This document shows, in pieces, positions 24,077 to 54,907 of a DNA stretch of 64,000 nucleotides. The stretch is taken from NCBI GenBank assembly GCA_965232895.1, contig OZ247430.1:3456122-3520121 (forward strand). Direction: 5' to 3'. This stretch comes from Dehalococcoidia bacterium (lineage in GTDB: Bacteria > Chloroflexota > Dehalococcoidia > Lucifugimonadales > UBA3495). Under the pieces are notes generated by a model, which saw only the letters and a list, made by a program, of their open reading frames with translations, ran no database searches and had not been told where the DNA came from. The position numbers were made by a program, and so were the translations under genes. Positions within the stretch are counted from its first letter, which is position 1. Every line of letters starts with the position of its first letter.

Positions 24077-24883
24077 GTGCTCTTTCCGGACCCAACAACG
24101 GATCGGCTGCTGGCCAATCTGGATGTGGGACAGCCCTCCCTCTGCGCCTACGTGTTCAGCCACCCGAACATGGTGGAAGTGGCCGGCCTGGCGGGTATGG
24201 ACTGTTTCATGGCCGACATGATGTTCACCGCTCACGATTGGGACAACATCGCCCACCTGATACGGGCGGCCCGCGGTACCGGCATCTCCCCCATGATCCG
24301 CGTGCAGGCGTTTCCGTGGGCCACCGGCGCCGACCGGCGCACCGTTTCCGATGCGGCCCGCGCCTTGTCCCTCGGGGCCACCGCCGTCACGGTTTCGGTG
24401 GGCTCAAAGGAGGAGGTGCAGGAATTGATGGGTCTGCGGGACGACTGGCACCGCCTCATCCACCTGCGCCGCTTCGACACCGCCGAGGACTTCCCGGAGT
24501 TCAACCGCAAGACCCGGGAGGGGACTTTGGTCGTGCCAACCGTGGAAAGCGAGGGTGGCCTGCGAGACCTCGACGAGATTCTGGCCATCGACGGCATCAG
24601 GTTGGTGTGGCTGGCCGCAGGTGACGTGACCAAGATACTGGGAGTGCCTTTCAAGTACGAAGATCCCAAAGTCATGCGGCTGCTGGAGAACGCCGTGAAG
24701 ACTGCGGAGCAGCACGGCGCGGCCATCATGTACAACATGGGCCTGGACTCGCCGGACTTCGACGCCATGGCGGCATCAGCCAGACGTTATTTCGATGTCG
24801 GGGTGCGTGTGGTCGGCCTGGGAGCCATGGAGTGGCACGCGCAGATGGCCCTGCAGCAAATCCGCCGTGGCGCCATAGGCTAG
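24077..24883 (+). CDS. HpcH/HpaI aldolase-family protein
   Basis: VEVAGLAGMDCFMADMMFTAHDW...PMIRV...VPTVESEGGL...DGIRLVWLAAGD fits the HpcH/HpaI pattern. Confidence 0.75.
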   Translation: MLFPDPTTDRLLANLDVGQPSLCAYVFSHPNMVEVAGLAGMDCFMADMMFTAHDWDNIAHLIRAARGTGISPMIRVQAFPWATGADRRTVSDAARALSLGATAVTVSVGSKEEVQELMGLRDDWHRLIHLRRFDTAEDFPEFNRKTREGTLVVPTVESEGGLRDLDEILAIDGIRLVWLAAGDVTKILGVPFKYEDPKVMRLLENAVKTAEQHGAAIMYNMGLDSPDFDAMAASARRYFDVGVRVVGLGAMEWHAQMALQQIRRGAIG

Positions 24884-25168: not shown

Positions 25169-26203
25169 GTGGCAATCGAATCCGTCCGCGTCGGCCTGAT
25201 CGGCGCCGGCCGTAATACTCGTGATCGACACATTCCGGGGTTCGATGAAACCCCGGGCGTGGAGATCGGCGCCGTCGCCAACCGGTCCCGCGAGTCGGGC
25301 CAGCGTGTTGCCGACGCCTTCAACATCCCCACCGTTTACGACAACTGGGAAGAACTGCTGGAAGACGAGAGCCTTGACGCCGTGTGCATCGGCACCTGGC
25401 CCTACATGCACCGCACGCTGACCATGGCGTCGCTGGAAGCTGGCAAGCACGTGCTGTGCGAGGCGCGCATGGCCATGACCGCCGCCGAGGCCCACGAGAT
25501 GCTGGCCGCGTCCCAGGCGTCGCCCAACCTGGTTGCCCAGATCGTGCCGTCGCCCATGAGCTTCGGGATCGACGACCTGCTGATTCGCCTGATATCCGAG
25601 GGCTTCATTGGCGACCTGATTTCCCTGGATGTCCAATCCCAGACCGGATTCACGGACCGCGATTCCACGCTGCACTGGCGCCAGGACCGCGACATGAGCG
25701 GGTTCAACATCCTGAACATGGGCATCTGGTACGAGGCCATGATCCGCTGGGTCGGCCGGGCGACCCAGGTGATGGCAATGAGCCAGATCACCGTCCCCCA
25801 TCGCCGGGACGACGACGGCAACTGGCGGTCGATCACGGTTCCGGACACCGTCGACATCCTGTGCCGCCTGGCCAACGGAGCCAACGCGCATCTGAAGTTC
25901 AGCGCCTGCGCCGGCCTGTCCCCCGGCAACTCCGTTTGGATCTACGGCACCGACGGAACCATCCATGTGGACGGCCAGATGCGCGTCTACGGCGGAAAGC
26001 GCGGTGATTCCCAGTTGCAGGAAATTGCCAACCCGCCGGAAAACCGCTACTCGTGGTCCGTCGAGCAGGAGTTCATCGCCTCCATCCGGGACGGGGCCCC
26101 GGTGCTGCGCACCCCGTTCAACATCGGCGTGCACTACATGGAGTGGACGGAAGCCGTGACCGTCAGCGCACAAACCGGCGAGGCGGTGTACCTGCCGCTG
26201 TAA
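25169..26203 (+). CDS. Gfo/Idh/MocA-family oxidoreductase
   Basis: VRVGLIGAGRNTRDRHIPGF...DAVCIGTWPYMH...GKHVLCEARMA. Confidence 0.85.
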   Translation: MAIESVRVGLIGAGRNTRDRHIPGFDETPGVEIGAVANRSRESGQRVADAFNIPTVYDNWEELLEDESLDAVCIGTWPYMHRTLTMASLEAGKHVLCEARMAMTAAEAHEMLAASQASPNLVAQIVPSPMSFGIDDLLIRLISEGFIGDLISLDVQSQTGFTDRDSTLHWRQDRDMSGFNILNMGIWYEAMIRWVGRATQVMAMSQITVPHRRDDDGNWRSITVPDTVDILCRLANGANAHLKFSACAGLSPGNSVWIYGTDGTIHVDGQMRVYGGKRGDSQLQEIANPPENRYSWSVEQEFIASIRDGAPVLRTPFNIGVHYMEWTEAVTVSAQTGEAVYLPL

Positions 26204-26228: not shown

Positions 26229-27681
26229 GTAGGGGCGAATGATTATTCGCCCCATAGGCATCAAGTTAAGGGAAGCTGCCGGTAAGATGGTGATTGCATT
26301 CCAATCAATCGCCACCGGAGCTTCCCATGAGCAGTGTGCCAGAAGTTGCCCAGGCCATGAGCCGGGTTCTCACCGGAGTGGCCCAGCAGGCCGCCGCCGA
26401 GACGGGGCTGGTGCAACGGCGTTCCAAACTCACCGGTCCCGGCTTGGTGCAGACCCTGGTTTTCGGTTGGCTGGCCGACCCGGACGCCAGCCTCAGTTCG
26501 CTGACCCAGATGGCGGCCACGCTGGGGGTGACCATCAGTCCCCAGGGCCTGTTCCAGCGGTTCACGCCCCAAGGGGCGGAATGTCTGTACCGAGTTTTGC
26601 AAGAGGCTTTGGGTCAAGTTATTGACGCCGAACCGGTGGCGATTCCGCTACTGCGGCGCTTCACCGCCGTGTTGATCCAGGACAGCTCGGTCATCATGCT
26701 GCCCGACGGACTGAGCGAGGTCTGGGCCGGTTGCGGCGGCAGCGGTTCCTATGGACAGTCAGCCCTGAAACTACAGGTCCGGCTGGATTTGACCACTGTT
26801 TCTGATGCTGGGGCCTTTTCTGACTGATGGGCGAACCCCGGACAGCAATTCTGCGGTGCAGACGGCGCCGGTCCCAGCTGGCGCGCTGCGCATTGCCGAC
26901 TTGGGGTATTACCGACTGGATACCTTCCGGGAATTGGCGGCGCAAGGGGGCTATTTCCTGTCTCGGTACAAAGCCGGAACCAAACTCTACCGGCATGATG
27001 GCGCGGAACTGGACCTGCGGAAGCTGCTGTCCACTCCGTCGGCAACCGGCATTGACCGGCCGGTATTGCTGGGGCGCGCCCACCGCTTGCCTGTCCGCCT
27101 GCTGGCCGTCAAAGCGCCCCCAGAAGTGAGCGCCCAGCGGCGGCGGCAACTCAAAGACCACGCCCGCAAGAAAGGTCAGCAGCCCAGCAAAACCCGGTTG
27201 GCCTTATGCGACTGGACCATCTACGTTACCAACGCGCTCCCATCCCAGATCAGCCGAGATGAGGCAATGGTATTGGCGCGGGCGCGCTGGCAGATTGAAC
27301 TGCTTTTCAAACTGTGGAAGCAACACGGAGGCATTGACCGCTGGCGCTCCGCCAATCCCTGGCGGATCCTCTGTGAGGTCTATGCCAAACTGACCGCCAT
27401 GGTCATCCTGCACTGGACTTTGCTGACTGCGGTCTGGATGTACCCGGACCGAAGCCTGGTCAAGGCCGCCGCCGCCGTCCGTCGCTACGCCGTAATGCTG
27501 GCTACTGCCATGACCGGACTACTTACGGCAACCATGGTCATCGAGCAGATTGGCTTATGCCTGCGCGCCGGGTGTAAAATCCAGCGGCGTCGTCAACGCC
27601 CCGGGTCATATCAACTACTACTCGCCCTAACCGACGACGCTTAACTTGATGCCTATGGGGCGAATGATTATTCGCCCCTAC
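26229..27681 (+). mobile_element. IS4-family insertion sequence, copy A (frameshifted)
   Basis: 17-bp perfect IR ataggcatcaagttaag, bracketed by ggggcgaatgattattcgcccc on both sides. Nearly identical to copies B and C. Confidence 0.9.
26327..27644 (+). pseudogene. IS4-family DDE transposase, disrupted by a +1 frameshift
   Basis: tttc at 26799..26802 replaces gac (52600..52602 in copy B). This splits the ORF into 26294..26827 and 26805..27644. Confidence 0.85.
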
Positions 27682-27707
27682 TTTTTCTGATGGCAGCTGA
27701 TAGCCGT

Positions 27708-28157
27708 TTATTTGGCTTCGTAGTCGGTTTCGTTGAGCAAAAACTCTTCAACCTCCGGAGTCAGGGGCAGTCTTACAACGCCGGTCGCCTCATCACGTAC
27801 TCCGAAACGCTGGCGCGCCTCCGCCAGGCGACTGCTTTGAAGACGCAACCCCTCGCGCAATCCTTCACGTAACCCTTCACCCCTCGCCTTGGCCAACGCC
27901 CGCTCCCGTGCCACTCTTCTGATTTCCTGCTTCGTCTCGAACATTCTTCGCACCTCGTCAAACAGGCCGGCCAGCGGTATCACAAACGCCCAGTACAGCT
28001 TCGTTACCGCGGTTGCAAAGTACCGGTACAGCCAAACCTCTGAATCGCCAAATACCTCCAAGATCACCACGCTGGCGACGCCGGCCAGCGTAAATCCGAC
28101 AATTTGCCACCAGATACCACGGTTGGGCAGTTCCCCGGATAGTCCCGATGCTCTCAT
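27708..28157 (-). CDS. Hypothetical membrane/coiled-coil protein
   Basis: Two hydrophobic segments followed by a charged helix with a GLREGLREGLR repeat. No family recognised. Confidence 0.35.
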   Translation of the reverse strand: MRASGLSGELPNRGIWWQIVGFTLAGVASVVILEVFGDSEVWLYRYFATAVTKLYWAFVIPLAGLFDEVRRMFETKQEIRRVARERALAKARGEGLREGLREGLRLQSSRLAEARQRFGVRDEATGVVRLPLTPEVEEFLLNETDYEAK

Positions 28158-28175: not shown

Positions 28176-28718
28176 CTACCGATCAACCAGACAGGCAATC
28201 ACCTGCGCCGCCGCCGTGGCCGCTCGCTCGGACAACTCGGCATCGGTCAGGGTTACGATGGGGTGCTCGATGATCGCCAGCCCGTACTCGGGGTCGCCGC
28301 GCATGCGGGACATGGCGTGGGCCTGGCTCACGAAGGGTCGGGTAGTCAATACGGTGGAAGGGATGCCCAGCAACTCGGTTTCCATTGCATCGTGCACACT
28401 GCACGCGGTGCAGGACCCTCATTCCGCCGTGGCATGTATTGCCACGTCAATGCTCTTTGCGGTGCGCTGCAGGTCCTCGATGCGGGCCGGCCACTGCCAG
28501 CCGCCCTTGTTGTGCTCCACGGCGCCGGCGATGTCGTAGCGTTCGCCGAGGATGGCGGCGATGCGGCGGAGCAGGTCCTCGGAGTGGGGCTTGTTGTTGG
28601 CGAACAAGCCGATCACCTTGCCGTCCAGGGTCGCCGGGCGCTGCGCCAACCGCGACGGAGCCGGCGGGGAGTCGTCACGCGGATCCAGCGTGACGATGGG
28701 AGTGGATTGTGTTGTCAT
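28176..28718 (-). CDS. UGSC-motif selenoprotein (in-frame UGA at 28419..28421)
   Basis: ORFs 28419..28718 and 28176..28397 share a frame. Read-through gives ...AIHATAE-U-GSCTACSVHDAMETE... The paralog at 42626..43165 has the same arrangement. AGGAG RBS. Confidence 0.72.
28391..28405 (-). promoter_or_regulatory. Candidate SECIS-like hairpin (CGUGCA-GUG-UGCACG)
   Basis: A 6-bp stem starts 14 nt after the UGA. It matches the hairpin at 42844..42858 in position and shape, with compensatory changes. Confidence 0.4.
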
Positions 28719-28774: not shown

Positions 28775-29776
28775 TCAGTGGGGTACGGCCACCTCGCGGA
28801 TAACCGAGCGGCTGGAGCCCCAGGTGCTGATCAGGCTGATGAAGGCCCCGGCCATGCCGCCCCCGGGCAGGACGGTGATCCGGTCGGCTTCCGGAACCAC
28901 CGGCACCAGCCGATCGTGATCCAGTTCGTGCCCCATTCGTTTCCAGCGCATCCACTCCGATACCGGCAGCCGCGCCTTGTCGTGCAGGAAACCGGCCACT
29001 TGCTGCCGCGACCAGCCGGCCGCCGCCACGTGCTGCATGGCCTCGGGGCTGATGACACAGATCACTTCGGGCATGCCCGGGCCAAAGGCCAGCATGGCGT
29101 GGGCCACGGTGGTCAGGAAGTCCGCCGGATCCCGGTCGCCATGCAGGGTTACCTGCAGGGGCGCCAGGGTGGCGAAGGCTCTCACGATAGTGGCGTCGTC
29201 GCCGTAGCCCAATTCCGATGCCAGGGACGCCCACGGGCTGATGGCCAGGTTCTCCGGGAAGCTGAAGGTGATCTTGCCGGCGTGTCCGAAGGTGCTGTTG
29301 TCCATCACCACCGGAACCGAGCCGTAGAAGTTGGACTTGAACAGGTTCACCGCCCGCCCGATGGCGGCGTTGGCGCGGCTTCCGTTGCCCATCATCTCCA
29401 CGCCGGCGTTCATTCCGATGGCCTCGGCGTAGGGACCGCTGACCACCGTGAGCACGGTGGCGCCGTTGGTGGACGTGCTGCTGGCGTGCAGGTTGAAGCT
29501 GCGGTCCGTTATCGCCGATAGCGACGCCATGACCACCGGGAAGTGTTCCGGCAGGCAGCCGGCCATCACCGCGTTGACGGCGGCCTTGCCGGCTGTGAAC
29601 CGCTTCTGCCGGATAATCTCCGTTCCCAGGTCGTGGTCGGCGTCCACGCCGGCGTAGTCCAGCATGGCCTGTACCCGGTCGGGCGTGGGCGGGACGATGG
29701 GCAGGCCGTCAGTGAGACCGTTGGAGAAGTAGTACTCCTGGGCGTCGTTCCAGTCGGCGAATCTGATGGTGGTCAT
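28775..29776 (-). CDS. Conserved protein of unknown function, partner A of the UGSC selenoprotein
   Basis: 333 aa with NGLTDGLPIVPPT, AAVNAVMAGCLPEHFPVV and RANAAIGRAVNL. Clear paralog of 40751..41824. Confidence 0.7.
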   Translation of the reverse strand: MTTIRFADWNDAQEYYFSNGLTDGLPIVPPTPDRVQAMLDYAGVDADHDLGTEIIRQKRFTAGKAAVNAVMAGCLPEHFPVVMASLSAITDRSFNLHASSTSTNGATVLTVVSGPYAEAIGMNAGVEMMGNGSRANAAIGRAVNLFKSNFYGSVPVVMDNSTFGHAGKITFSFPENLAISPWASLASELGYGDDATIVRAFATLAPLQVTLHGDRDPADFLTTVAHAMLAFGPGMPEVICVISPEAMQHVAAAGWSRQQVAGFLHDKARLPVSEWMRWKRMGHELDHDRLVPVVPEADRITVLPGGGMAGAFISLISTWGSSRSVIREVAVPH

Positions 29777-29861: not shown

Positions 29862-31259
29862 TCAGTTGCGCAGGCCGCCCCGCCGAAAGTCTGGGGCCTC
29901 CATGGGCATTTCGGTCACCACCAGCGGGTCTTGCAGCCGTGAGGCGATGCGCGGGCGCGCGGATGCGATAGCCTCGATCTGTTGCGATGTGGTGATGATG
30001 GTGGGCAGTCGCTCCTCGTAGCGGTAGCCTACGATCTGGAACAACTTGTCCTCGGCGAAGGGCGTGCTGCGCTCCGCTCCCATGTCGTCCAGCACCAGCA
30101 CGTCGGCGTTGCGGATCCGGTCCAACAGGTCGTCGTGGTTGACTGCGCTGTCCGGGGCGAAGGTGGCCCGAAGATAATCGAGGAGGTCGGCCACCGTCGC
30201 AAAGAAGACCTCGTCGCCCCGGTCTTCGCGCTCGGCCGCGGCGGCCACCGCCAGGTGGGTCTTGCCCACGCCGTACGGTCCGTGCAGGCTCAGCCAACCA
30301 TCGGGACTGTTCGCCCACCGCTGCACGTAGGACTTGGCGGCGCGGAGGCTGCGTTGCTGATCGTCGGTCAGCCGGCCGTTGCCGGCCGGATCGAAAGCGG
30401 CGAAGGTCATCCGCGCCCTCATGTTGGGCGGGATTGCGCCTATGGATCGGCCAGTGGAACCGCCCACCCTGCCCAGCCGGTAGAGCCGCCCGAACCCGTC
30501 CGGTGATTCCAGCCGGGTGCGCAGGAAGTCGTCCAGCCGGTTGGGGTCGCCGCGCAGGGTAACCACCGTGGGCAGGCGGGCAGCGTGCCGGGAAGCCAGC
30601 AATTGGAACAGCCGCTCCTGGGTCCACGGAGTAGACGGACGAGTGGGCAGGTCGTCCAGGACCAACAATGGCGCGTGGCGAACCTGATCGAACAGGTCAA
30701 CGAATGGCTGATCGGCTTCGTCATCGAAACCGCTGCGCAGGTAGTCGATGAGGTCCGCCGCGGTGATGAACAAGGCCGGGCTGCCCAGCTCGATCCGGCG
30801 GTTGGCGATGGCGGCGGCCAGGTAGGTCTTGCCGCTCCCGCTGGGGCCGACGAGGGTGAGCCATCCCTCGGGGCTTTCGGCGTAGGCGACGGCGGCGGTC
30901 AGGGCATTGCGGAAAGCCTGCCGTGCTGCTGGCTCCTGGCTCAGGCCGTCCGGATTGGCATTCTCGAACGTGGCCTGGCGCAGGGACCCGAGATTGCTGT
31001 ACCGCTCCAGGGCTTCGATGCGCTGGCTTCGGTCGGTGTCCTGTTCCTGGCACCGGCACGGGAACACCTTGCCGAAATCGGGATTGGTTACGTGGACCTG
31101 CCGCGTGACCCAACCCGCCCCGCCGCACCGCTCGCAATCCTCAGCCCCGTTCCGGCTCTCCGGGCTCCCAGGGTAGTCGACCGTATCGGCGTCGATAGCT
31201 GTCCAGGTATCCCGAGCGGCTATCCGGCGCAATATCGCTCCCAGGCTCTCCATGCTCAT
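29862..31259 (-). CDS. DnaC/DnaI-like helicase loader with two tandem AAA+ modules and an N-terminal Cys cluster
   Basis: Walker A/B occur twice (GPSGSGKT...LLVLDD; GPYGVGKT...VLVLDD). CERCGGAGW...FPCRCQ at the N-terminus. Follows dnaB and the dnaD-like gene. Confidence 0.8.
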   Translation of the reverse strand: MSMESLGAILRRIAARDTWTAIDADTVDYPGSPESRNGAEDCERCGGAGWVTRQVHVTNPDFGKVFPCRCQEQDTDRSQRIEALERYSNLGSLRQATFENANPDGLSQEPAARQAFRNALTAAVAYAESPEGWLTLVGPSGSGKTYLAAAIANRRIELGSPALFITAADLIDYLRSGFDDEADQPFVDLFDQVRHAPLLVLDDLPTRPSTPWTQERLFQLLASRHAARLPTVVTLRGDPNRLDDFLRTRLESPDGFGRLYRLGRVGGSTGRSIGAIPPNMRARMTFAAFDPAGNGRLTDDQQRSLRAAKSYVQRWANSPDGWLSLHGPYGVGKTHLAVAAAAEREDRGDEVFFATVADLLDYLRATFAPDSAVNHDDLLDRIRNADVLVLDDMGAERSTPFAEDKLFQIVGYRYEERLPTIITTSQQIEAIASARPRIASRLQDPLVVTEMPMEAPDFRRGGLRN

Positions 31260-40750: not shown

Positions 40751-41824
40751 TCAGCCCGGGATCTCTATCTTCTCCGTCACCACGCGGGTCACTCCCCAAC
40801 CGGCGAGCCAGGCGGAGTGACGGCCGTCGCCCCCGGCTACCACCACTACGATGTCGTCGACCTGCGGCGCTATCGGCACCATGGTATTCGGGTCGTCATC
40901 ATTAACCCAATCCGGGTAGTTGCGGTTGCCCCAGTGTCCCAGGCCCGACAGGTCGGCGATGGACATGCGCGCGTTGGCGAACACGTACTCGCGAACGTCC
41001 TGCTTGGTGAACCCGTCCGCCGCGATTTCCGCCGCGTGCTCCGGGCTCAGCACCAGCGTCACCTGCGCCCCGGTTCCGATCTGGTAGTAATTCGAAAAGC
41101 CGGTGGCCCGGGTCCCTTGCACCAGCGTGCGGAGCACTTCGGTTCCGGTGGATACCGTCGTCTCCATGATCGGGTAGAAGCCCCTGATGGCGTGGAGGGT
41201 CACCATGCTGTCTTCGGGATCGAGCCCCAGCTCCACGTGCCTCGGCTCCCACGGGCTGCGCGCCTCGTTCTCCGCGAAGCAGAAAGAGTACCTGCCAGGC
41301 ATGGCCAGGGTGGCCTTGTCCATGTCGCCGATGATGAGACCGGCTACGTTGCGCACGAACAGGCGCAGCGCCCGGCCGATGGTAGCGTTGGCCCGGTAGC
41401 CCGGCCCGAACGCCCCGGAATCGCCGTTGATGCCCAGGCGCTCGGCAATCGGGCCGTTCACGATCACCACCGGCGCGGCGCCGCCCGTGGTGGCCTGGCA
41501 CCCGGCCAGGTTGAACGACGTTTGCAGGGCCGCCTTCACGCACGCCACCACCACCGGAAAATACTCGGGCCGGCACCCGGCCATCACCGCGTTGATCGCG
41601 ACCTTCTCGATGGTGACCACCGAGTTGGACGGCTGCGCGATCCCCAAGGACAGGGCCGGGTCCTCGCCCCAAGGCCCTAGCATGCGCTGGACCGCATCTT
41701 CCGTGGCCGGAACGACGGGCATACCGTCAGTCCATCCCTGCTCTTCGTAGTAGTCCTGGATCGCGTCGTAGGAGTCAGGCACGTCGATGCGTCGCGAGTT
41801 CAAGGCTCGACTGTTGCTTGTCAT
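40751..41824 (-). CDS. Conserved protein of unknown function, partner B (paralog of 28775..29776)
   Basis: QGWTDGMPVVPAT, VAINAVMAGCRPEYFPVV and RANATIGRALRL align with partner A. ATG 41824 was chosen inside ORF 40751..41929. Confidence 0.7.
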   Translation of the reverse strand: MTSNSRALNSRRIDVPDSYDAIQDYYEEQGWTDGMPVVPATEDAVQRMLGPWGEDPALSLGIAQPSNSVVTIEKVAINAVMAGCRPEYFPVVVACVKAALQTSFNLAGCQATTGGAAPVVIVNGPIAERLGINGDSGAFGPGYRANATIGRALRLFVRNVAGLIIGDMDKATLAMPGRYSFCFAENEARSPWEPRHVELGLDPEDSMVTLHAIRGFYPIMETTVSTGTEVLRTLVQGTRATGFSNYYQIGTGAQVTLVLSPEHAAEIAADGFTKQDVREYVFANARMSIADLSGLGHWGNRNYPDWVNDDDPNTMVPIAPQVDDIVVVVAGGDGRHSAWLAGWGVTRVVTEKIEIPG

Positions 41825-42590
41825 AACGTTCACTCTTCTGAAGTGGATTTTGTGGTTCGTCGCGTGTGTACAGGTCCGCAACGACGCCGAAATGGTCGGA
41901 TAGCCGCCGGTCCCCGTCCGTGTTGTCAATCGTCGTCAGTGAGCCGGCGGACAGATCGCCGCTGATGGCGATGTGATCGATTGCGCGCCGCCCCCGCAAT
42001 CCAAGCCCGGCAGTGGCTATGGTCAAGCCCGGCGTTGGTCCGGCAAGCATGGTCTCTTGCAATTCGGCGCGCACCGGATTGAGTAGTGGCGGAAATGGGC
42101 GTCGTCGTTGTCCGATCTGTTGGTTGAAGTCGCCCGTCAGGACGACCGGGTATGACGCTTTGCGGTTTAGAATCGAAGCCAAGCCTTTGAGATACGTGGA
42201 ATGTTCTTCCCACGGTCGTTTGTCCCTGGATCCCACGTTCACGTTGGCGTTGTGCCAGGGGATGCAGACCCCGATTACCATCACGTCGCCAATCGAGGTT
42301 CGGGTGATCCCGGACACGAACCGTCCGGGCGGCATTGCGGAGTCGCCAGACCAGTCTATGTTTCGCCAGGGGTGACGCGACCAGAGCAGGACCTTGCGCC
42401 GCCCTTGAATCACGGGACCCCCGGAGTAGGGTTGCGGCCAGATCGAGTAGCCGCATCCCGCGAGCAGATTCTTGCTTGTCTCCGTGAGGCAGATCACCTC
42501 GGGATCATGGCTCGCAATGCGGCGCAAAACTTCTGGGCTACGCGCCGCAGCGGGCGTAGCCCATTGAACATTCCAGTTGACCACTTTCAT
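41775..42590 (-). CDS. Endonuclease/exonuclease/phosphatase (EEP) family protein
   Basis: MKVVNWNVQW...VICLTE...VLTGDFN...DHIAISGD...SDHFGV. Confidence 0.8.
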   Translation of the reverse strand: MKVVNWNVQWATPAAARSPEVLRRIASHDPEVICLTETSKNLLAGCGYSIWPQPYSGGPVIQGRRKVLLWSRHPWRNIDWSGDSAMPPGRFVSGITRTSIGDVMVIGVCIPWHNANVNVGSRDKRPWEEHSTYLKGLASILNRKASYPVVLTGDFNQQIGQRRRPFPPLLNPVRAELQETMLAGPTPGLTIATAGLGLRGRRAIDHIAISGDLSAGSLTTIDNTDGDRRLSDHFGVVADLYTRDEPQNPLQKSERYDKQQSSLELATHRRA

Positions 42591-42625: not shown

Positions 42626-43165
42626 TTACTTCCCGTTGGTCAGCATCTCGGCGATCCGGCCGGCGTAGTCGTGCGCCAGTTGCTGCACGTCCGGTATTGA
42701 CCGCGAAGCCAGCGGGCTGGGCAGAGCCAGGATCTGAACGCCAGGCATTCCCAGCGAGGAGGCGCGGGCGTACGCGGCCCGGGTGAAACTCTCGGTGATT
42801 ACGCTCACAGACGGGACGCCGCGGGTTTCGGTAACTACTGTGTCGTGGAGACCCCACGCCGTGCAGCTCCCTCAATCCGCGATTCCGTGCACCACCGCAT
42901 CGCACTGCTCGATCAGTTCTTCGATGGTCTCGTCGGAGCAGGGAGCGCTGAAGCTGAACTTGCGCAGGTACACCACCTTCTCGACGGCATACTCCTCCTC
43001 CAGGATGACCTGAAGCTCCTGCAGGAAGTTGTCGGAATGGTACTTGCGGTTTTCCAGCAGGCCGATGGTCTTGCCGGAGAGGCTGGGCAACCGGTCGGTC
43101 GCCGCGCGCTCCTCGGTTTTTTGCTCCGGACGCGGGTCCAGTATCTGGATGGTTGCAGTCGTCAT
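42626..43165 (-). CDS. UGSC-motif selenoprotein, paralog B (in-frame UGA at 42872..42874)
   Basis: ORFs 42872..43195 and 42626..42808 share a frame. Read-through gives ...AVVHGIAD-U-GSCTAWGLHDTVV... ATG 43165 follows a GGAGG RBS. Confidence 0.72.
42844..42858 (-). promoter_or_regulatory. Candidate SECIS-like hairpin (CGUGGG-GUC-UCCACG)
   Basis: Starts 14 nt after the UGA, the same offset as in locus A. Stem positions 5 and 6 covary relative to locus A. Confidence 0.4.
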
Positions 43166-47024: not shown

Positions 47025-47494
47025 GAGACTCTCCTGGGTTGAGGTCGGGCCAACCGATGCATGCTGGCCGTGCCATTTTACCGCATTCAGGCAAAAATAA
47101 AAGCGGCTTTGCCACCGAATCGTAACGGTAAAGCCGCTTGGTTGAGGTATCAACCTATCGCGCTGTGTGGCCTACAATCGCCTGCGAAATCTTGGTGCGT
47201 CATCACGCCCGCCCCCGACCATCCTTAGGGTTTGGTACTTTCCGGCGGTGACCTATTTTCCCACTCCGTTACCAGAGCAGTATCGTCGGCGCTGGGGCGT
47301 TTCACTTCCGTGTTCGGGATGGGTACGGGTGGGGCCACCCCGCTTGAACCACCAGAAAGTAACTGTGTGAATTATTGCGCATTGTCGGCGATTTTGCAAG
47401 GGTGTCACCAGGGGGAATTTCCGTGGATGCTCGCCCACGGCCGATCCGGGGCCCTGTGCTATACTCAAAACGGTGGCTGGAAATCGCTTCACCG

Positions 47495-52029: not shown

Positions 52030-53468
52030 GTAGGGGCGAATGATCATTCGCCCCATAGGCATCAAGTTAAGGGAAGCTGCCGGTAAGATGGTGATTGCAT
52101 TCCAATCAATCGCCACCGGAGCTTCCCATGAGCAGTGTGCCAGAAGTTGCCCAGGCCATGAGCCGGGTTCTCACCGGAGTGGCCCAGCAGGCCGCCGCCG
52201 AGACGGGGCTGGTGCAACGGCGTTCCAAACTCACCGGTCCCGGCTTGGTGCAGACCCTGGTTTTCGGTTGGCTGGCCGACCCGGACGCCAGCCTCAGTTC
52301 GCTGACCCAGATGGCGGCCACGCTGGGGGTGACCATCAGTCCCCAGGGCCTGTTCCAGCGGTTCACGCCCCAAGGGGCGGAATGTCTGTACCGAGTTTTG
52401 CAAGAGGCTTTGGGTCAAGTTATTGACGCCGAACCGGTGGCGATTCCGCTACTGCGGCGCTTCACCGCCGTGTTGATCCAGGACAGCTCGGTCATCATGC
52501 TGCCCGACGGACTGAGCGAGGTCTGGGCCGGTTGCGGCGGCAGCGGTTCCTATGGACAGTCAGCCCTGAAACTACAGGTCCGGCTGGATTTGACCACTGG
52601 ACTGATGCTGGGGCCTTTTCTGACTGATGGGCGAACCCCGGACAGCAATTCTGCGGTGCAGACGGCGCCGGTCCCAGCTGGCGCGCTGCGCATTGCCGAC
52701 TTGGGGTATTACCGACTGGATACCTTCCGGGAATTGGCGGCGCAAGGGGGCTATTTCCTGTCTCGGTACAAAGCCGGAACCAAACTCTACCGGCATGATG
52801 GCGCGGAACTGGACCTGCGGAAGCTGCTGTCCACTCCGTCGGCAACCGGCATTGACCGGCCGGTATTGCTGGGGCGCGCCCACCGCTTGCCTGTCCGCCT
52901 GCTGGCCGTCAAAGCGCCCCCAGAAGTGAGCGCCCAGCGGCGGCGGCAACTCAAAGACCACGCCCGCAAGAAAGGTCAGCAGCCCAGCAAAACCCGGTTG
53001 GCCTTATGCGACTGGACCATCTACGTTACCAACGCGCTCCCATCCCAGATCAGCCGAGATGAGGCAATGGTATTGGCGCGGGCGCGCTGGCAGATTGAAC
53101 TGCTTTTCAAACTGTGGAAGCAACACGGAGGCATTGACCGCTGGCGCTCCGCCAATCCCTGGCGGATCCTCTGTGAGGTCTATGCCAAACTGACCGCCAT
53201 GGTCATCCTGCACTGGACTTTGCTGACTGCGGTCTGGATGTACCCGGACCGAAGCCTGGTCAAGGCCGCCGCCGCCGTCCGTCGCTACGCCGTAATGCTG
53301 GCTACTGCCATGACCGGACTACTTACGGCAACCATGGTCATCGAGCAGATTGGCTTATGCCTGCGCGCCGGGTGTAAAATCCAGCGGCGTCGTCAACGCC
53401 CCGGGTCATATCAACTACTACTCGCCCTAACCGACGACGCTTAACTTGATGCCTATGGGGGCGAATGA
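52030..53468 (+). mobile_element. IS4-family insertion sequence, copy B (intact)
   Basis: Same IRs as copy A. The right boundary is set at the centre of the palindrome shared with copy C. Confidence 0.9.
52128..53444 (+). CDS. IS4-family DDE transposase
   Basis: VLIQDSS..., RIADLGYY..., ARARWQIELLFKLWKQ (R-x3-E-x6-K). ATG 52128 follows GGAG. The ORF track starts at TTG 52095. Confidence 0.9.
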   Translation: MSSVPEVAQAMSRVLTGVAQQAAAETGLVQRRSKLTGPGLVQTLVFGWLADPDASLSSLTQMAATLGVTISPQGLFQRFTPQGAECLYRVLQEALGQVIDAEPVAIPLLRRFTAVLIQDSSVIMLPDGLSEVWAGCGGSGSYGQSALKLQVRLDLTTGLMLGPFLTDGRTPDSNSAVQTAPVPAGALRIADLGYYRLDTFRELAAQGGYFLSRYKAGTKLYRHDGAELDLRKLLSTPSATGIDRPVLLGRAHRLPVRLLAVKAPPEVSAQRRRQLKDHARKKGQQPSKTRLALCDWTIYVTNALPSQISRDEAMVLARARWQIELLFKLWKQHGGIDRWRSANPWRILCEVYAKLTAMVILHWTLLTAVWMYPDRSLVKAAAAVRRYAVMLATAMTGLLTATMVIEQIGLCLRAGCKIQRRRQRPGSYQLLLALTDDA

Positions 53469-54907
53469 TCATTCGCCCCCATAGGCATCAAGTTAAGGGA
53501 AGCTGCCGGTAAGATGGTGATTGCATTCCAATCAATCGCCACCGGAGCTTCCCATGAGCAGTGTGCCAGAAGTTGCCCAGGCCATGAGCCGGGTTCTCAC
53601 CGGAGTGGCCCAGCAGGCCGCCGCCGAGACGGGGCTGGTGCAACGGCGTTCCAAACTCACCGGTCCCGGCTTGGTGCAGACCCTGGTTTTCGGTTGGCTG
53701 GCCGACCCGGACGCCAGCCTCAGTTCGCTGACCCAGATGGCGGCCACGCTGGGGGTGACCATCAGTCCCCAGGGCCTGTTCCAGCGGTTCACGCCCCAAG
53801 GGGCGGAATGTCTGTACCGAGTTTTGCAAGAGGCTTTGGGTCAAGTTATTGACGCCGAACCGGTGGCGATTCCGCTACTGCGGCGCTTCACCGCCGTGTT
53901 GATCCAGGACAGCTCGGTCATCATGCTGCCCGACGGACTGAGCGAGGTCTGGGCCGGTTGCGGCGGCAGCGGTTCCTATGGACAGTCAGCCCTGAAACTA
54001 CAGGTCCGGCTGGATTTGACCACTGGACTGATGCTGGGGCCTTTTCTGACTGATGGGCGAACCCCGGACAGCAATTCTGCGGTGCAGACGGCGCCGGTCC
54101 CAGCTGGCGCGCTGCGCATTGCCGACTTGGGGTATTACCGACTGGATACCTTCCGGGAATTGGCGGCGCAAGGGGGCTATTTCCTGTCTCGGTACAAAGC
54201 CGGAACCAAACTCTACCGGCATGATGGCGCGGAACTGGACCTGCGGAAGCTGCTGTCCACTCCGTCGGCAACCGGCATTGACCGGCCGGTATTGCTGGGG
54301 CGCGCCCACCGCTTGCCTGTCCGCCTGCTGGCCGTCAAAGCGCCCCCAGAAGTGAGCGCCCAGCGGCGGCGGCAACTCAAAGACCACGCCCGCAAGAAAG
54401 GTCAGCAGCCCAGCAAAACCCGGTTGGCCTTATGCGACTGGACCATCTACGTTACCAACGCGCTCCCATCCCAGATCAGCCGAGATGAGGCAATGGTATT
54501 GGCGCGGGCGCGCTGGCAGATTGAACTGCTTTTCAAACTGTGGAAGCAACACGGAGGCATTGACCGCTGGCGCTCCGCCAATCCCTGGCGGATCCTCTGT
54601 GAGGTCTATGCCAAACTGACCGCCATGGTCATCCTGCACTGGACTTTGCTGACTGCGGTCTGGATGTACCCGGACCGAAGCCTGGTCAAGGCCGCCGCCG
54701 CCGTCCGTCGCTACGCCGTAATGCTGGCTACTGCCATGACCGGACTACTTACGGCAACCATGGTCATCGAGCAGATTGGCTTATGCCTGCGCGCCGGGTG
54801 TAAAATCCAGCGGCGTCGTCAACGCCCCGGGTCATATCAACTACTACTCGCCCTAACCGACGACGCTTAACTTGATGCCTATGGGGCGAATGATCATTCG
54901 CCCCTAC
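53469..54907 (+). mobile_element. IS4-family insertion sequence, copy C (intact, head-to-tail with B)
   Basis: The predicted protein is identical to that of copy B. Ends ...cttaacttgatgcctatggggcgaatgatcattcgcccctac. Confidence 0.9.
53554..54870 (+). CDS. IS4-family DDE transposase
   Basis: Identical translation to 52128..53444. Confidence 0.9.
   Translation: MSSVPEVAQAMSRVLTGVAQQAAAETGLVQRRSKLTGPGLVQTLVFGWLADPDASLSSLTQMAATLGVTISPQGLFQRFTPQGAECLYRVLQEALGQVIDAEPVAIPLLRRFTAVLIQDSSVIMLPDGLSEVWAGCGGSGSYGQSALKLQVRLDLTTGLMLGPFLTDGRTPDSNSAVQTAPVPAGALRIADLGYYRLDTFRELAAQGGYFLSRYKAGTKLYRHDGAELDLRKLLSTPSATGIDRPVLLGRAHRLPVRLLAVKAPPEVSAQRRRQLKDHARKKGQQPSKTRLALCDWTIYVTNALPSQISRDEAMVLARARWQIELLFKLWKQHGGIDRWRSANPWRILCEVYAKLTAMVILHWTLLTAVWMYPDRSLVKAAAAVRRYAVMLATAMTGLLTATMVIEQIGLCLRAGCKIQRRRQRPGSYQLLLALTDDA

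What the first reader, a model, noticed from the sequence alone, without database searches (positions are those of the whole stretch)
28176..28718. In-frame UGA fuses two ORF-track fragments into a U-G-S-C selenoprotein
ORFs 28419..28718 and 28176..28397 are in the same frame. They are separated only by TGA (28419..28421) and seven sense codons. Read-through gives ...KSIDVAIHATAE-U-GSCTACSVHDAMETELLGIP..., a coherent ~180-aa protein with a single RBS-equipped start.

The paralog at 42626..43165 has TGA at the homologous column, followed by the same GSC. Two diverged copies keeping TGA at one column argues for selenocysteine over decay. The motif matches what I recall as the NCBI 'UGSC family (seleno)protein'. 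Its function is unknown. U-x-x-C suggests a redox centre.
Basis: partly seen in the sequence, partly recalled or inferred. Interest (0 to 1): 0.7.

Follow-up and report, generated by a model that had tools for sequence, protein, structure and literature searches.

The report
Two UGSC-family selenoprotein genes
The window carries two genuine selenocysteine-encoding genes of the already described but functionally uncharacterised "UGSC" family, each paired with the same unnamed partner gene, in a sponge-associated SAR202-type Chloroflexota bacterium.

Summary
On the minus strand, 28718..28176 and 43165..42626 are single genes of about 180 aa interrupted by one in-frame TGA (28421..28419 and 42874..42872), each followed by G-S-C.

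- **Family:** both match Pfam PF24696 and NCBIfam NF041046, "UGSC family (seleno)protein".
- **TGA conserved:** the column is TGA in 164 of 164 homologous loci I fetched, and Cys in rarer full-length homologs.
- **Downstream frame translated:** the 80 codons after the TGA are under the same purifying selection as the upstream part (dN/dS about 0.11).
- **SECIS:** synonymous variation collapses in codons +2..+12. A hairpin there places G23-U24 in its loop, at the same position as in the E. coli fdhF SECIS.
- **UGA still a stop:** it ends 12 of 36 other genes in the window.
- **Sec machinery:** the nearest published relative (SAR202 bin87) is reported to have SelA, SelB and SelD. The window's own genome could not be checked.

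So these are new members of a known family.

- The predicted fold is flavodoxin-like, not thioredoxin-like.
- A 333-357 aa partner with no Pfam or NCBIfam family is adjacent in Chloroflexota, Actinomycetota, Proteobacteria and haloarchaea.
- The two are fused in one Variovorax protein and often clustered with trxB/trxA.
- The Sec motif region weakly resembles that of PrdB.

Together these suggest a two-subunit reductase recycled by the thioredoxin system.

The parts
28176..28718 (-). UGSC-family selenoprotein gene, copy 1 (type A, ..HATAE-U-GSCTAC..). It encodes 180 aa including Sec; ATG at 28718, stop TAG at 28178..28176.
   Evidence: The gene is syntenic in 84 related loci.
28419..28421 (-). 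In-frame TGA read as selenocysteine (copy 1).
   Evidence: TGA in 85/85 type-A homologs. Cys occupies this column in full-length homologs.
28377..28418 (-). SECIS element of copy 1, overlapping codons +1..+14. The upper hairpin CGUGCA-GUG-UGCACG lies at 28405..28391, which is nt 17-31 counted from the U of UGA.
   Evidence: Fold. Codons GCG TGC AGT GTG are invariant in 86 unique genes and synonymous entropy collapses there. G23-U24 sit in the loop at the same position as in E. coli fdhF.
28775..29776 (-). Partner gene A (333 aa) with no Pfam or NCBIfam family. It lies immediately upstream of copy 1 on the same strand and ends in TGA.
   Evidence: A homolog lies upstream on the same strand in 80/84 type-A loci.
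42626..43165 (-). UGSC-family selenoprotein gene, copy 2 (type B, ..HGIAD-U-GSCTAW..). It encodes 179 aa including Sec; stop TAA.
42872..42874 (-). In-frame TGA read as selenocysteine (copy 2).
   Evidence: TGA in 79/79 type-B homologs.
42830..42871 (-). SECIS element of copy 2. The upper hairpin CGUGG-GGUCU-CCACG lies at 42858..42844 (nt 17-31 from the U of UGA). Its loop letters GGUCU are the same as in E. coli fdhF.
41775..42590 (-). Endonuclease/exonuclease/phosphatase-family gene lying between copy 2 and its partner. A homolog of it was found only in L085 and L086; L088 has a gap of similar size but no homolog detected. Probably not part of the module.
   Evidence: Pfam PF03372, E 8e-14. 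The UGSC-to-partner gap is 8-200 nt in 48 type-B loci and overlaps by 9 nt in one, against about 800 nt here.
40751..41824 (-). Partner gene B (357 aa from the ATG at 41824). It is a paralog of partner A (35% identity, E 1e-56).
   Evidence: A homolog lies downstream on the same strand in 52/78 type-B loci; 24 of the other 26 loci have less than 1.5 kb downstream of the Sec codon.

Best explanation
Both loci are intact genes for cytoplasmic selenoproteins of about 180 aa in the UGSC family. What is shown, or very strongly supported, is the recoding. During translation the in-frame UGA is read as selenocysteine. A stem-loop starting 13 nt after the UGA, inside the coding sequence, presents G23-U24 in its apical loop to SelB, as in the classical E. 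coli fdhF SECIS. Translation then continues for 80-81 more codons to a TAG or TAA stop.

The function is inferred, and I put it at roughly 50%. The Sec sits at the N-terminus of a helix on a flavodoxin-like alpha/beta domain and, with the Cys three residues later, forms a U-x-x-C selenenylsulfide redox centre. The protein works as the redox-active small subunit of a two-component enzyme. The large subunit is the conserved 333-357 aa partner encoded next to it, which has an invariant Cys in its M-A-G-C motif. The oxidised centre is re-reduced by thioredoxin reductase or thioredoxin. The substrate is probably a small organic acid or CoA ester. The genome carries two diverged copies of the whole two-gene module.
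For: **Recoding**
- TGA is conserved in 164/164 homologous genes from Dehalococcoidia/SAR202 genomes and metagenomes.
- Cys occupies the column in natural full-length homologs P0246, P0288, P0319, P0338 and P0363.
- dN/dS downstream of the UGA is 0.11-0.12, against 0.11-0.17 upstream.
- Normalised synonymous entropy is 0.20 in codons +2..+12 against 0.64 elsewhere (type A, p 1e-5), and 0.33 against 0.71 (type B, p 5e-4).
- A hairpin at nt 17-31 is present in both subfamilies. There is one compensatory C-G to G-C exchange between them. The loop position matches the verified fdhF SECIS, and in type B the loop letters match too.
- UGA is an ordinary stop for 12/36 other ORFs in the window.
- The nearest relative, bin87, is reported to have SelA, SelB and SelD.
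- A Paracoccus Sec-form homolog has selB 4.4 kb away.

**Function**
- The AlphaFold model of a Cys form has pLDDT 91 and five beta-alpha units, with Cys100 at the N-cap of helix 101-116. Foldseek finds only flavodoxin-like folds.
- The partner is adjacent in 80/84 type-A and 52/78 type-B loci.
- The partner is also adjacent in Arthrobacter, Roseovarius and Natrinema, with hhalign probability 100% and E about 1e-60.
- UGSC and partner are fused in one 545-aa Variovorax protein.
- trxB or trxA lies in the same cluster in Arthrobacter, Roseovarius and Variovorax SRS16, and a TrxB-like flavoprotein in V. boronicumulans.
Against: - No tRNA-Sec, selA, selB or selD lies in the 64 kb window or in 1.96 Mb of related flanks. 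The window's own genome could not be searched, so the machinery is shown only for a relative.
- The hairpins are not individually more stable than shuffled sequence (z -1.2 and -1.6), and Rfam has no matching SECIS model.
- Only one compensatory pair supports the helix, because the element is nearly invariant within each subfamily.
- Nothing about function is experimental. No trxB or trxA lies next to the modules in this window or in the Dehalococcoidia loci.
- The partner has no significant fold or sequence relative.
- The similarity to PrdB is weak (hhalign probability 49%).
Confidence: 0.8

Rival explanations
1. The genes are pseudogenes: formerly continuous genes inactivated by a nonsense mutation, with the downstream frame decaying.
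For: Gene callers split every homolog into a 99-aa and a roughly 65-70-aa ORF.
Against: The same TGA is present in 164/164 homologs spanning about 57-98% identity. The downstream frame is always open for 79-87 codons, and dN/dS downstream is 0.11-0.12.
Confidence: 0.01
2. This is a naturally split gene: two separate polypeptides (99 aa and about 73 aa) are made and assemble, with UGA acting as a true stop.
For: A GTG or ATG lies a few codons after the TGA in copy 1.
Against: The codons between the TGA and that start (G-S-C-T-A-C-S) are the most conserved of the protein and would be left untranslated. No ribosome-binding site precedes the internal start. Cys forms and the Variovorax fusion are continuous. 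In the model the motif sits mid-domain between strand 3 and helix 3.
Confidence: 0.02
3. UGA is read through as a standard amino acid (Trp, Cys or Gly), either by a reassigned genetic code or by near-cognate suppression, without selenocysteine.
For: Sec machinery was not seen directly in this genome. Cys misinsertion at UGA is known under selenium limitation (my own knowledge).
Against: UGA ends 12/36 confident ORFs in the window, including both partner genes. A SECIS-type hairpin under strong synonymous constraint follows the UGA. The nearest relative is reported to have SelA, SelB and SelD.
Confidence: 0.03
4. On function, the protein is a free-standing thioredoxin-fold thiol:disulfide oxidoreductase. 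This is the guess in Zhang & Gladyshev 2008. It would act on its own and not as a subunit of a dedicated enzyme.
For: It has a U-x-x-C motif like many Trx-, Prx- and Grx-like selenoproteins. [quoted passage not shown]
Against: The high-confidence model is a five-fold beta-alpha, flavodoxin-like domain, and Foldseek returns no Trx-fold hits. Gene linkage with one partner family is near-obligate across four phyla, and a fusion protein exists.
Confidence: 0.1
5. On function, it is a Stickland-type 'selenoprotein B' analogue. Sec attacks a substrate carbon bound to the partner, forms a Se-C adduct, and the Cys resolves it. This would resemble GrdB/PrdB, rather than the centre acting as a simple electron relay.
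For: PrdB matches the Pfam UGSC model at E 9.8e-4 across the Sec motif. hhalign of UGSC against authentic PrdB gives E 1.7e-4 over 55 columns..DAV..A[GD]-U-G[ST]C..E..G[IV]P[ST]... trxB-trxA operon partners occur here, as in grd operons (the grd comparison is my own knowledge).
Against: hhalign probability is only 49%. UGSC does not match Pfam GRDB even at E 10. The partner shows no similarity to the pyruvoyl proprotein PrdA (probability 0.2%).
Confidence: 0.2

Closest known systems
UGSC-containing selenoprotein family (Zhang & Gladyshev 2008, PMC2398784; NCBIfam NF041046; Pfam PF24696)
   Same: Both copies have a full-length HMM match, the U-G-S-C motif at the family's Sec column, and a length of about 180 aa. 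Sec forms far outnumber Cys forms, as reported for GOS (255 Sec against 21 Cys). The link to a second domain also fits: the paper's 'UGSC/Unknown_1 fusion' is probably the partner family found here.
   Different: Nothing essential differs; these are two further members. Copy 1 scores 110 bits, below NCBIfam's 125-bit equivalog cut-off. The published guess of a thioredoxin-like fold is not supported by the model.
E. coli fdhF-type bacterial SECIS element
   Same: It is a hairpin inside the coding sequence directly after the UGA. The apical loop carries G23-U24 at the same distance from the UGA, the type-B loop GGUCU has the same letters as fdhF, and the helix ends at nt 31.
   Different: The stem sequences differ, and no bulged U17 equivalent is evident. 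The type-A loop is only 3-5 nt (A-GUG-U). SelB binding is untested.
Selenoprotein B of D-proline / glycine / sarcosine / betaine reductases (PrdB, GrdB; Pfam PF07355)
   Same: The Sec motif U-G-[ST]-C follows a beta-strand ending in A-[GD]. About 12 residues later comes E-x-x-G-[IV]-P-[ST] and another strand. There is a weak reciprocal profile signal (E 1e-3 to 2e-4). It is accompanied by a separate larger subunit, and sometimes by trxB/trxA.
   Different: UGSC has no GRDB-domain match and is shorter, lacking the PrdB N-terminal region. The partner is unrelated to PrdA/GrdE. The hosts are aerobic or marine Chloroflexota, Proteobacteria and haloarchaea, not Stickland-fermenting Clostridia.

Membership tests
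UGSC family (Pfam PF24696 / NCBIfam NF041046) | Full-length match to the family HMM above the curated cut-off | tested here: met
   Pfam gives 146.1 bits (copy 1) and 169.6 bits (copy 2) against a cut-off of 25. NCBIfam gives 127.2 bits for copy 2, which passes the 125 cut-off, and 109.9 bits for copy 1, just below it.
UGSC family (Pfam PF24696 / NCBIfam NF041046) | U/C-G-S-C motif at the conserved column | tested here: met
   The motif is TGA-GGG-TCC-TGC in copy 1 and TGA-GGG-AGC-TGC in copy 2. These align with CGSC or CGAC in Cys forms.
Bacterial selenoprotein gene | In-frame UGA conserved in orthologs and aligned with Cys in some homologs | tested here: met
   164/164 homologs have TGA. Cys forms are P0246, P0288, P0319, P0338 and P0363.
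Bacterial selenoprotein gene | Downstream reading frame conserved as protein | tested here: met
   dN/dS downstream is 0.110 (type A) and 0.124 (type B), against 0.168 and 0.109 upstream. C-terminal fragments carry precomputed Pfam UGSC hits.
Bacterial selenoprotein gene | SECIS stem-loop at the right distance downstream of the UGA with G in the apical loop | tested here: met
   The hairpin spans nt 17-31 with G23-U24 in the loop. Synonymous-site constraint has p 1e-5 and 5e-4. The geometry matches the verified fdhF element. Function in SelB binding was not tested.
Bacterial selenoprotein gene | Sec-decoding machinery (selA, selB, selC, selD) in the same genome | not testable with these tools
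By proxy, SAR202 bin87 (91.6% nucleotide identity over 19 kb) has COG1921 SelA 3, COG3276 SelB 1 and COG0709 SelD 1 in Slaby et al. 2017 Table S4.
Bacterial selenoprotein gene | Selenium actually incorporated | not testable with these tools
   This needs 75Se labelling or mass spectrometry.
GrdB/PrdB selenoprotein B (Pfam PF07355) | Match to the GRDB domain | tested here: not met
   No GRDB hit at E up to 0.1 for the window proteins, or at E up to 10 for 8 family members.
GrdB/PrdB selenoprotein B (Pfam PF07355) | U-G-T/S-C Sec motif in a similar sequence context | tested here: inconclusive
   PrdB matches the UGSC HMM at E 9.8e-4 and 19.7 bits, below the cut-off. hhalign gives probability 49%, E 1.7e-4, over 55 columns.
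GrdB/PrdB selenoprotein B (Pfam PF07355) | Pyruvoyl proprotein partner (PrdA/GrdE) | tested here: not met
   Partner alignment against PrdA gives hhalign probability 0.2%.
Thioredoxin-fold oxidoreductases | Thioredoxin fold | tested here: not met
   The AF2 model (pLDDT 91) is five consecutive beta-alpha units. Foldseek PDB hits are TIR, flavodoxin, lumazine synthase and FMN reductase folds, with TM at most 0.47 and no Trx.

The most novel reading that the evidence does not exclude
UGSC and its unnamed partner may form a previously unrecognised class of reductase. It would be selenium-dependent and recycled by the thioredoxin system, with a Sec module that is a distant, stand-alone relative of the selenoprotein B of Stickland reductases. 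The class would be widespread in aerobic marine, soil and sponge-associated bacteria and in haloarchaea, with two paralogous modules per SAR202 genome. It would act in the breakdown of a small organic acid or CoA ester. The recurrent neighbours point that way: family III CoA-transferases, CoA-ester lyases, and TRAP or TTT carboxylate transporters.
Probability: 0.3. Interest if true: 0.65.

Novelty: new member of a known kind. Interest (0 to 1): 0.35.

Why it matters
The selenoprotein call itself is routine: the family has been described since 2005-2008, and NCBI's pipeline has a model for it. [quoted passage not shown]

The context assembled here turns 'function unknown' into a testable two-subunit, thioredoxin-dependent reductase hypothesis. 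That context consists of:
- a near-obligate partner family with no Pfam or NCBIfam model;
- a natural fusion of the two;
- trxB/trxA operon partners;
- a flavodoxin-like rather than Trx-like fold;
- a PrdB-like Sec motif.

It also shows that gene callers split these genes in essentially every public Dehalococcoidia genome.

Tried and rejected
- **Sec machinery in the window:** ARAGORN, Rfam and ORF inspection found none.
- **tRNA-Sec in related flanks:** none in 164 related loci covering 1.96 Mb.
- **Identifying the window's own genome:** an exact-protein look-up of GuaB3 was not on record.
- **Rfam SECIS models:** a search of the copy-1 region found nothing relevant.
- **PDB sequence search:** nothing for UGSC or the partner.
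- **Foldseek on the partner:** only insignificant hits, the best being class I fumarate hydratase at E 2.5e-3, TM 0.24-0.30.
- **Permissive Pfam scans:** uninformative for both families.
- **Partner as a PrdA/GrdE homolog:** rejected.
- **Figure S1A of PMC2398784 (UGSC/Unknown_1 fusion):** held only as an image, so identity of 'Unknown_1' with the partner could not be confirmed.
- **Housekeeping neighbours in Dehalococcoidia (GuaB3, DnaE, ClpB, DnaB/DnaC):** judged lineage synteny, not functional linkage.
- **Convergent Gfo/Idh/MocA gene downstream of type-A modules:** present in 50/56 close and 11/28 distant loci, but it is on the opposite strand and absent from type B, so it was left as a weak lead.

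Full report
**1. The observation**

On the minus strand, the ORF 28718..28422 (99 aa, ATG preceded by GGAG) ends at TGA 28421..28419. The same frame continues G-S-C-T-A-C-S-V-H-D... for 80 codons to TAG at 28178..28176.

A second gene, 43165..42626, behaves the same way. Its TGA lies at 42874..42872 after ..HGIAD, followed by G-S-C-T-A-W... for 81 codons to TAA. The two read-through proteins are 30% identical over their whole length, with the TGA in the same column. The description is accurate in every detail.

**2. Family**

With Cys substituted for the stop, both proteins match Pfam PF24696 'UGSC family' end to end (146 and 170 bits; cut-off 25). They also match NCBIfam NF041046 'UGSC family (seleno)protein' (110 and 127 bits; cut-off 125).

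The family was described from the Sargasso Sea and GOS metagenomes. It is listed as one of the major aquatic selenoprotein families, with 255 Sec forms against 21 Cys forms, a U-x-x-C motif, unknown function, and a fusion to an 'Unknown_1' domain (PMC2398784). It is still listed as uncharacterised in 2022 and 2026 reviews.

**3. Is the UGA really decoded?**

*The homologs.* Nearly all of the 240 listed hits in the 5.8-billion-protein collection are 99-aa N-terminal fragments, because gene callers stop at the UGA. They fall into two subfamilies. Type A has ..HATAE-U and includes copy 1. Type B has ..HGIAD-U and includes copy 2.

I fetched 80 type-A loci from GTDB genomes, all of them Dehalococcoidia, SAR202 or Chloroflexota MAGs. 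I also fetched 80 type-B loci from metagenomes.

- The column is TGA in 85/85 type-A and 79/79 type-B genes.
- The downstream frame stays open for 79-87 codons in nearly all complete genes (two type-A exceptions run 83 and 113 codons), and the real stop is mostly TAG or TAA.
- dN/dS downstream of the UGA is 0.11-0.12, the same as upstream at 0.11-0.17. The downstream half is therefore translated.
- A profile search of 1.84 billion representatives found 1,873 clusters at E up to 1e-3. A few are full-length Cys forms such as ..GDCGSC...
- UGA is an ordinary stop for 12 of 36 confident ORFs in the window, including both partner genes. The code is therefore not reassigned.

*The SECIS.* Across 86 unique type-A genes, the codons GCG-TGC-AGT-GTG after the UGA are invariant although they are 2- to 6-fold degenerate. 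Normalised synonymous entropy in codons +2..+12 is 0.20 against 0.64 elsewhere (p 1e-5). In type B it is 0.33 against 0.71 (p 5e-4), and dS drops about 3-fold.

The constrained stretch folds into a hairpin at nt 17-31, counted from the U of UGA:

| Subfamily | Hairpin |
|---|---|
| Type A | CGUGCA-GUG-UGCACG |
| Type B | CGUGG-GGUCU-CCACG |

There is one compensatory C21-G27 to G21-C27 change between the subfamilies, and RNAalifold recovers this helix for the joint alignment. G23-U24 lie in the loop at exactly the positions they occupy in the E. coli fdhF SECIS. I confirmed that sequence against 5,419 E. coli genomes. The single-sequence folding energies are not significant on their own.

*The machinery.* None lies in the window or in 1.96 Mb of related flanks. 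The closest sequences are L001 and L021, at 91-92% nucleotide identity over 19 kb.

L021 belongs to SAR202 bin87 from the sponge Aplysina aerophoba. Slaby et al. 2017 list SelA (3), SelB (1) and SelD (1) for that bin, and note that SelA and SelB are enriched in sponge symbionts. This is proxy evidence only.

**4. What the protein is**

An AlphaFold model of the Cys form P0246 (pLDDT 91, pTM 0.83) shows five beta-alpha units. The Sec/Cys lies at the N-cap of the helix after strand 3.

Foldseek against the PDB returns only weak flavodoxin-like hits: TIR, flavodoxin, lumazine synthase and FMN reductase, with TM at most 0.47. No thioredoxin fold appears, so the published 'likely Trx-like fold' is not supported.

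**5. The partner**

Each copy is linked to a paralogous ORF. Partner A is 28775..29776. Partner B is 40751..41824. They are 35% identical (E 1e-56), and neither matches any Pfam or NCBIfam family.

- A homolog lies upstream on the same strand in 80/84 type-A loci.
- A homolog lies directly downstream (at most 200 nt away) in 49 type-B loci and about 800 nt away in three more, 52/78 in all. All but two of the other 26 are too short to tell.
- The partner family has at least 3,085 database members, all called 'hypothetical'.
- Its model (pLDDT 85) has no significant PDB match.

In annotated plasmids, the 'UGSC family (seleno)protein' again sits next to a partner homolog in Natrinema, Arthrobacter and Roseovarius, confirmed by hhalign at probability 100% and E about 1e-60. 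A protein of partner size also flanks it in Halalkalicoccus, Halorientalis, Variovorax and Paracoccus.

In Variovorax boronicumulans the two are fused in one 545-aa protein. Thioredoxin reductase, with or without thioredoxin, lies in the same gene string in four cases:

- Arthrobacter (trxB-trxA-partner-UGSC);
- Roseovarius;
- Variovorax SRS16;
- V. boronicumulans, as a TrxB-like flavoprotein.

Family III CoA-transferases, CoA-ester lyases and TRAP or TTT transporters also recur. A Paracoccus Sec form has selB 4.4 kb away.

**6. A lead on mechanism**

I recalled the PrdB sequence from memory and validated it at 79-92% identity against annotated prdB genes. It matches the Pfam UGSC model across its Sec motif at E 9.8e-4.

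hhalign of the UGSC alignment against authentic PrdB sequences gives E 1.7e-4 and probability 49% over 55 columns..DAV..A[GD]-U-G[ST]C...E..G[IV]P[ST]... This suggests remote kinship with the selenoprotein B of Stickland reductases but does not prove it. The partner is not related to PrdA.

**7. Verdict**

The finding is real and correctly interpreted: two new members of a known, automatically annotatable selenoprotein family. The selenoprotein call rests on strong comparative evidence.

The functional model is a U-x-x-C redox subunit of a two-component reductase recycled by the thioredoxin system. It is an inference from gene linkage, a fusion and a predicted structure. The two-subunit linkage and the fold assignment go beyond what I found in the literature available to me, and they make the family's function testable.

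Noticed in passing
window 26805..28157; also 52095..53444 and 53521..54870: Two identical tandem IS4-family transposase genes (449 aa) lie at 52095 and 53521. A truncated copy (279 aa, the same C-terminal sequence) lies at 26805..27644. Together with an unannotated 149-aa ORF (27708..28157), the truncated copy sits between UGSC copy 1 and the Gfo/Idh/MocA gene. In relatives such as L001 those two genes are adjacent, so this looks like a recent insertion.
   Followed up: partly
window 41775..42590: An endonuclease/exonuclease/phosphatase-family gene is wedged between UGSC copy 2 and its partner. A homolog of it was found only here and in L085 and L086; L088 has a gap of similar size but no homolog detected. 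The other type-B loci have the two genes at most 209 nt apart.
   Followed up: partly
window 47240..47356: A 5S rRNA gene stands alone between clpB and tRNA-Lys. No 16S or 23S gene lies anywhere in the 64 kb, so the rRNA genes appear to be unlinked.
   Followed up: no
codon before the UGA: window 28422..28424 and 42875..42877; all L loci: The codon immediately 5' of the Sec UGA is almost fixed: GAA in 97% of type-A genes and a single Asp codon in all type-B genes (GAT in the window copy). This hints at an upstream context requirement for Sec insertion.
   Followed up: no
L080 10283 and 11384: One Dehalococcoidia genome (CBDANJ010000008.1) has two type-A UGSC genes 1.1 kb apart, both with TGA.
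   Followed up: no
L177 3906..6605 and L178 2920..5582: In the haloarchaea Halalkalicoccus jeotgali and Halorientalis litorea, the UGSC gene is flanked on both sides by hypothetical proteins of about 330-340 aa. These may be two partner paralogs. Haloarchaeal family members are Cys forms.
   Followed up: no
window 25169..26203 and 24077..24883; L001, L165: A convergent Gfo/Idh/MocA oxidoreductase lies downstream of type-A modules in 50/56 close and 11/28 distant loci, often followed by an HpcH/HpaI-type lyase. It may be functionally linked or may just reflect synteny.
   Followed up: partly
window 29862..31259: A 465-aa protein with two IstB/DnaC-like AAA+ ATPase modules is encoded between a DnaD-like gene and dnaB on one side and partner A on the other. 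It is conserved in the close relatives.
   Followed up: no
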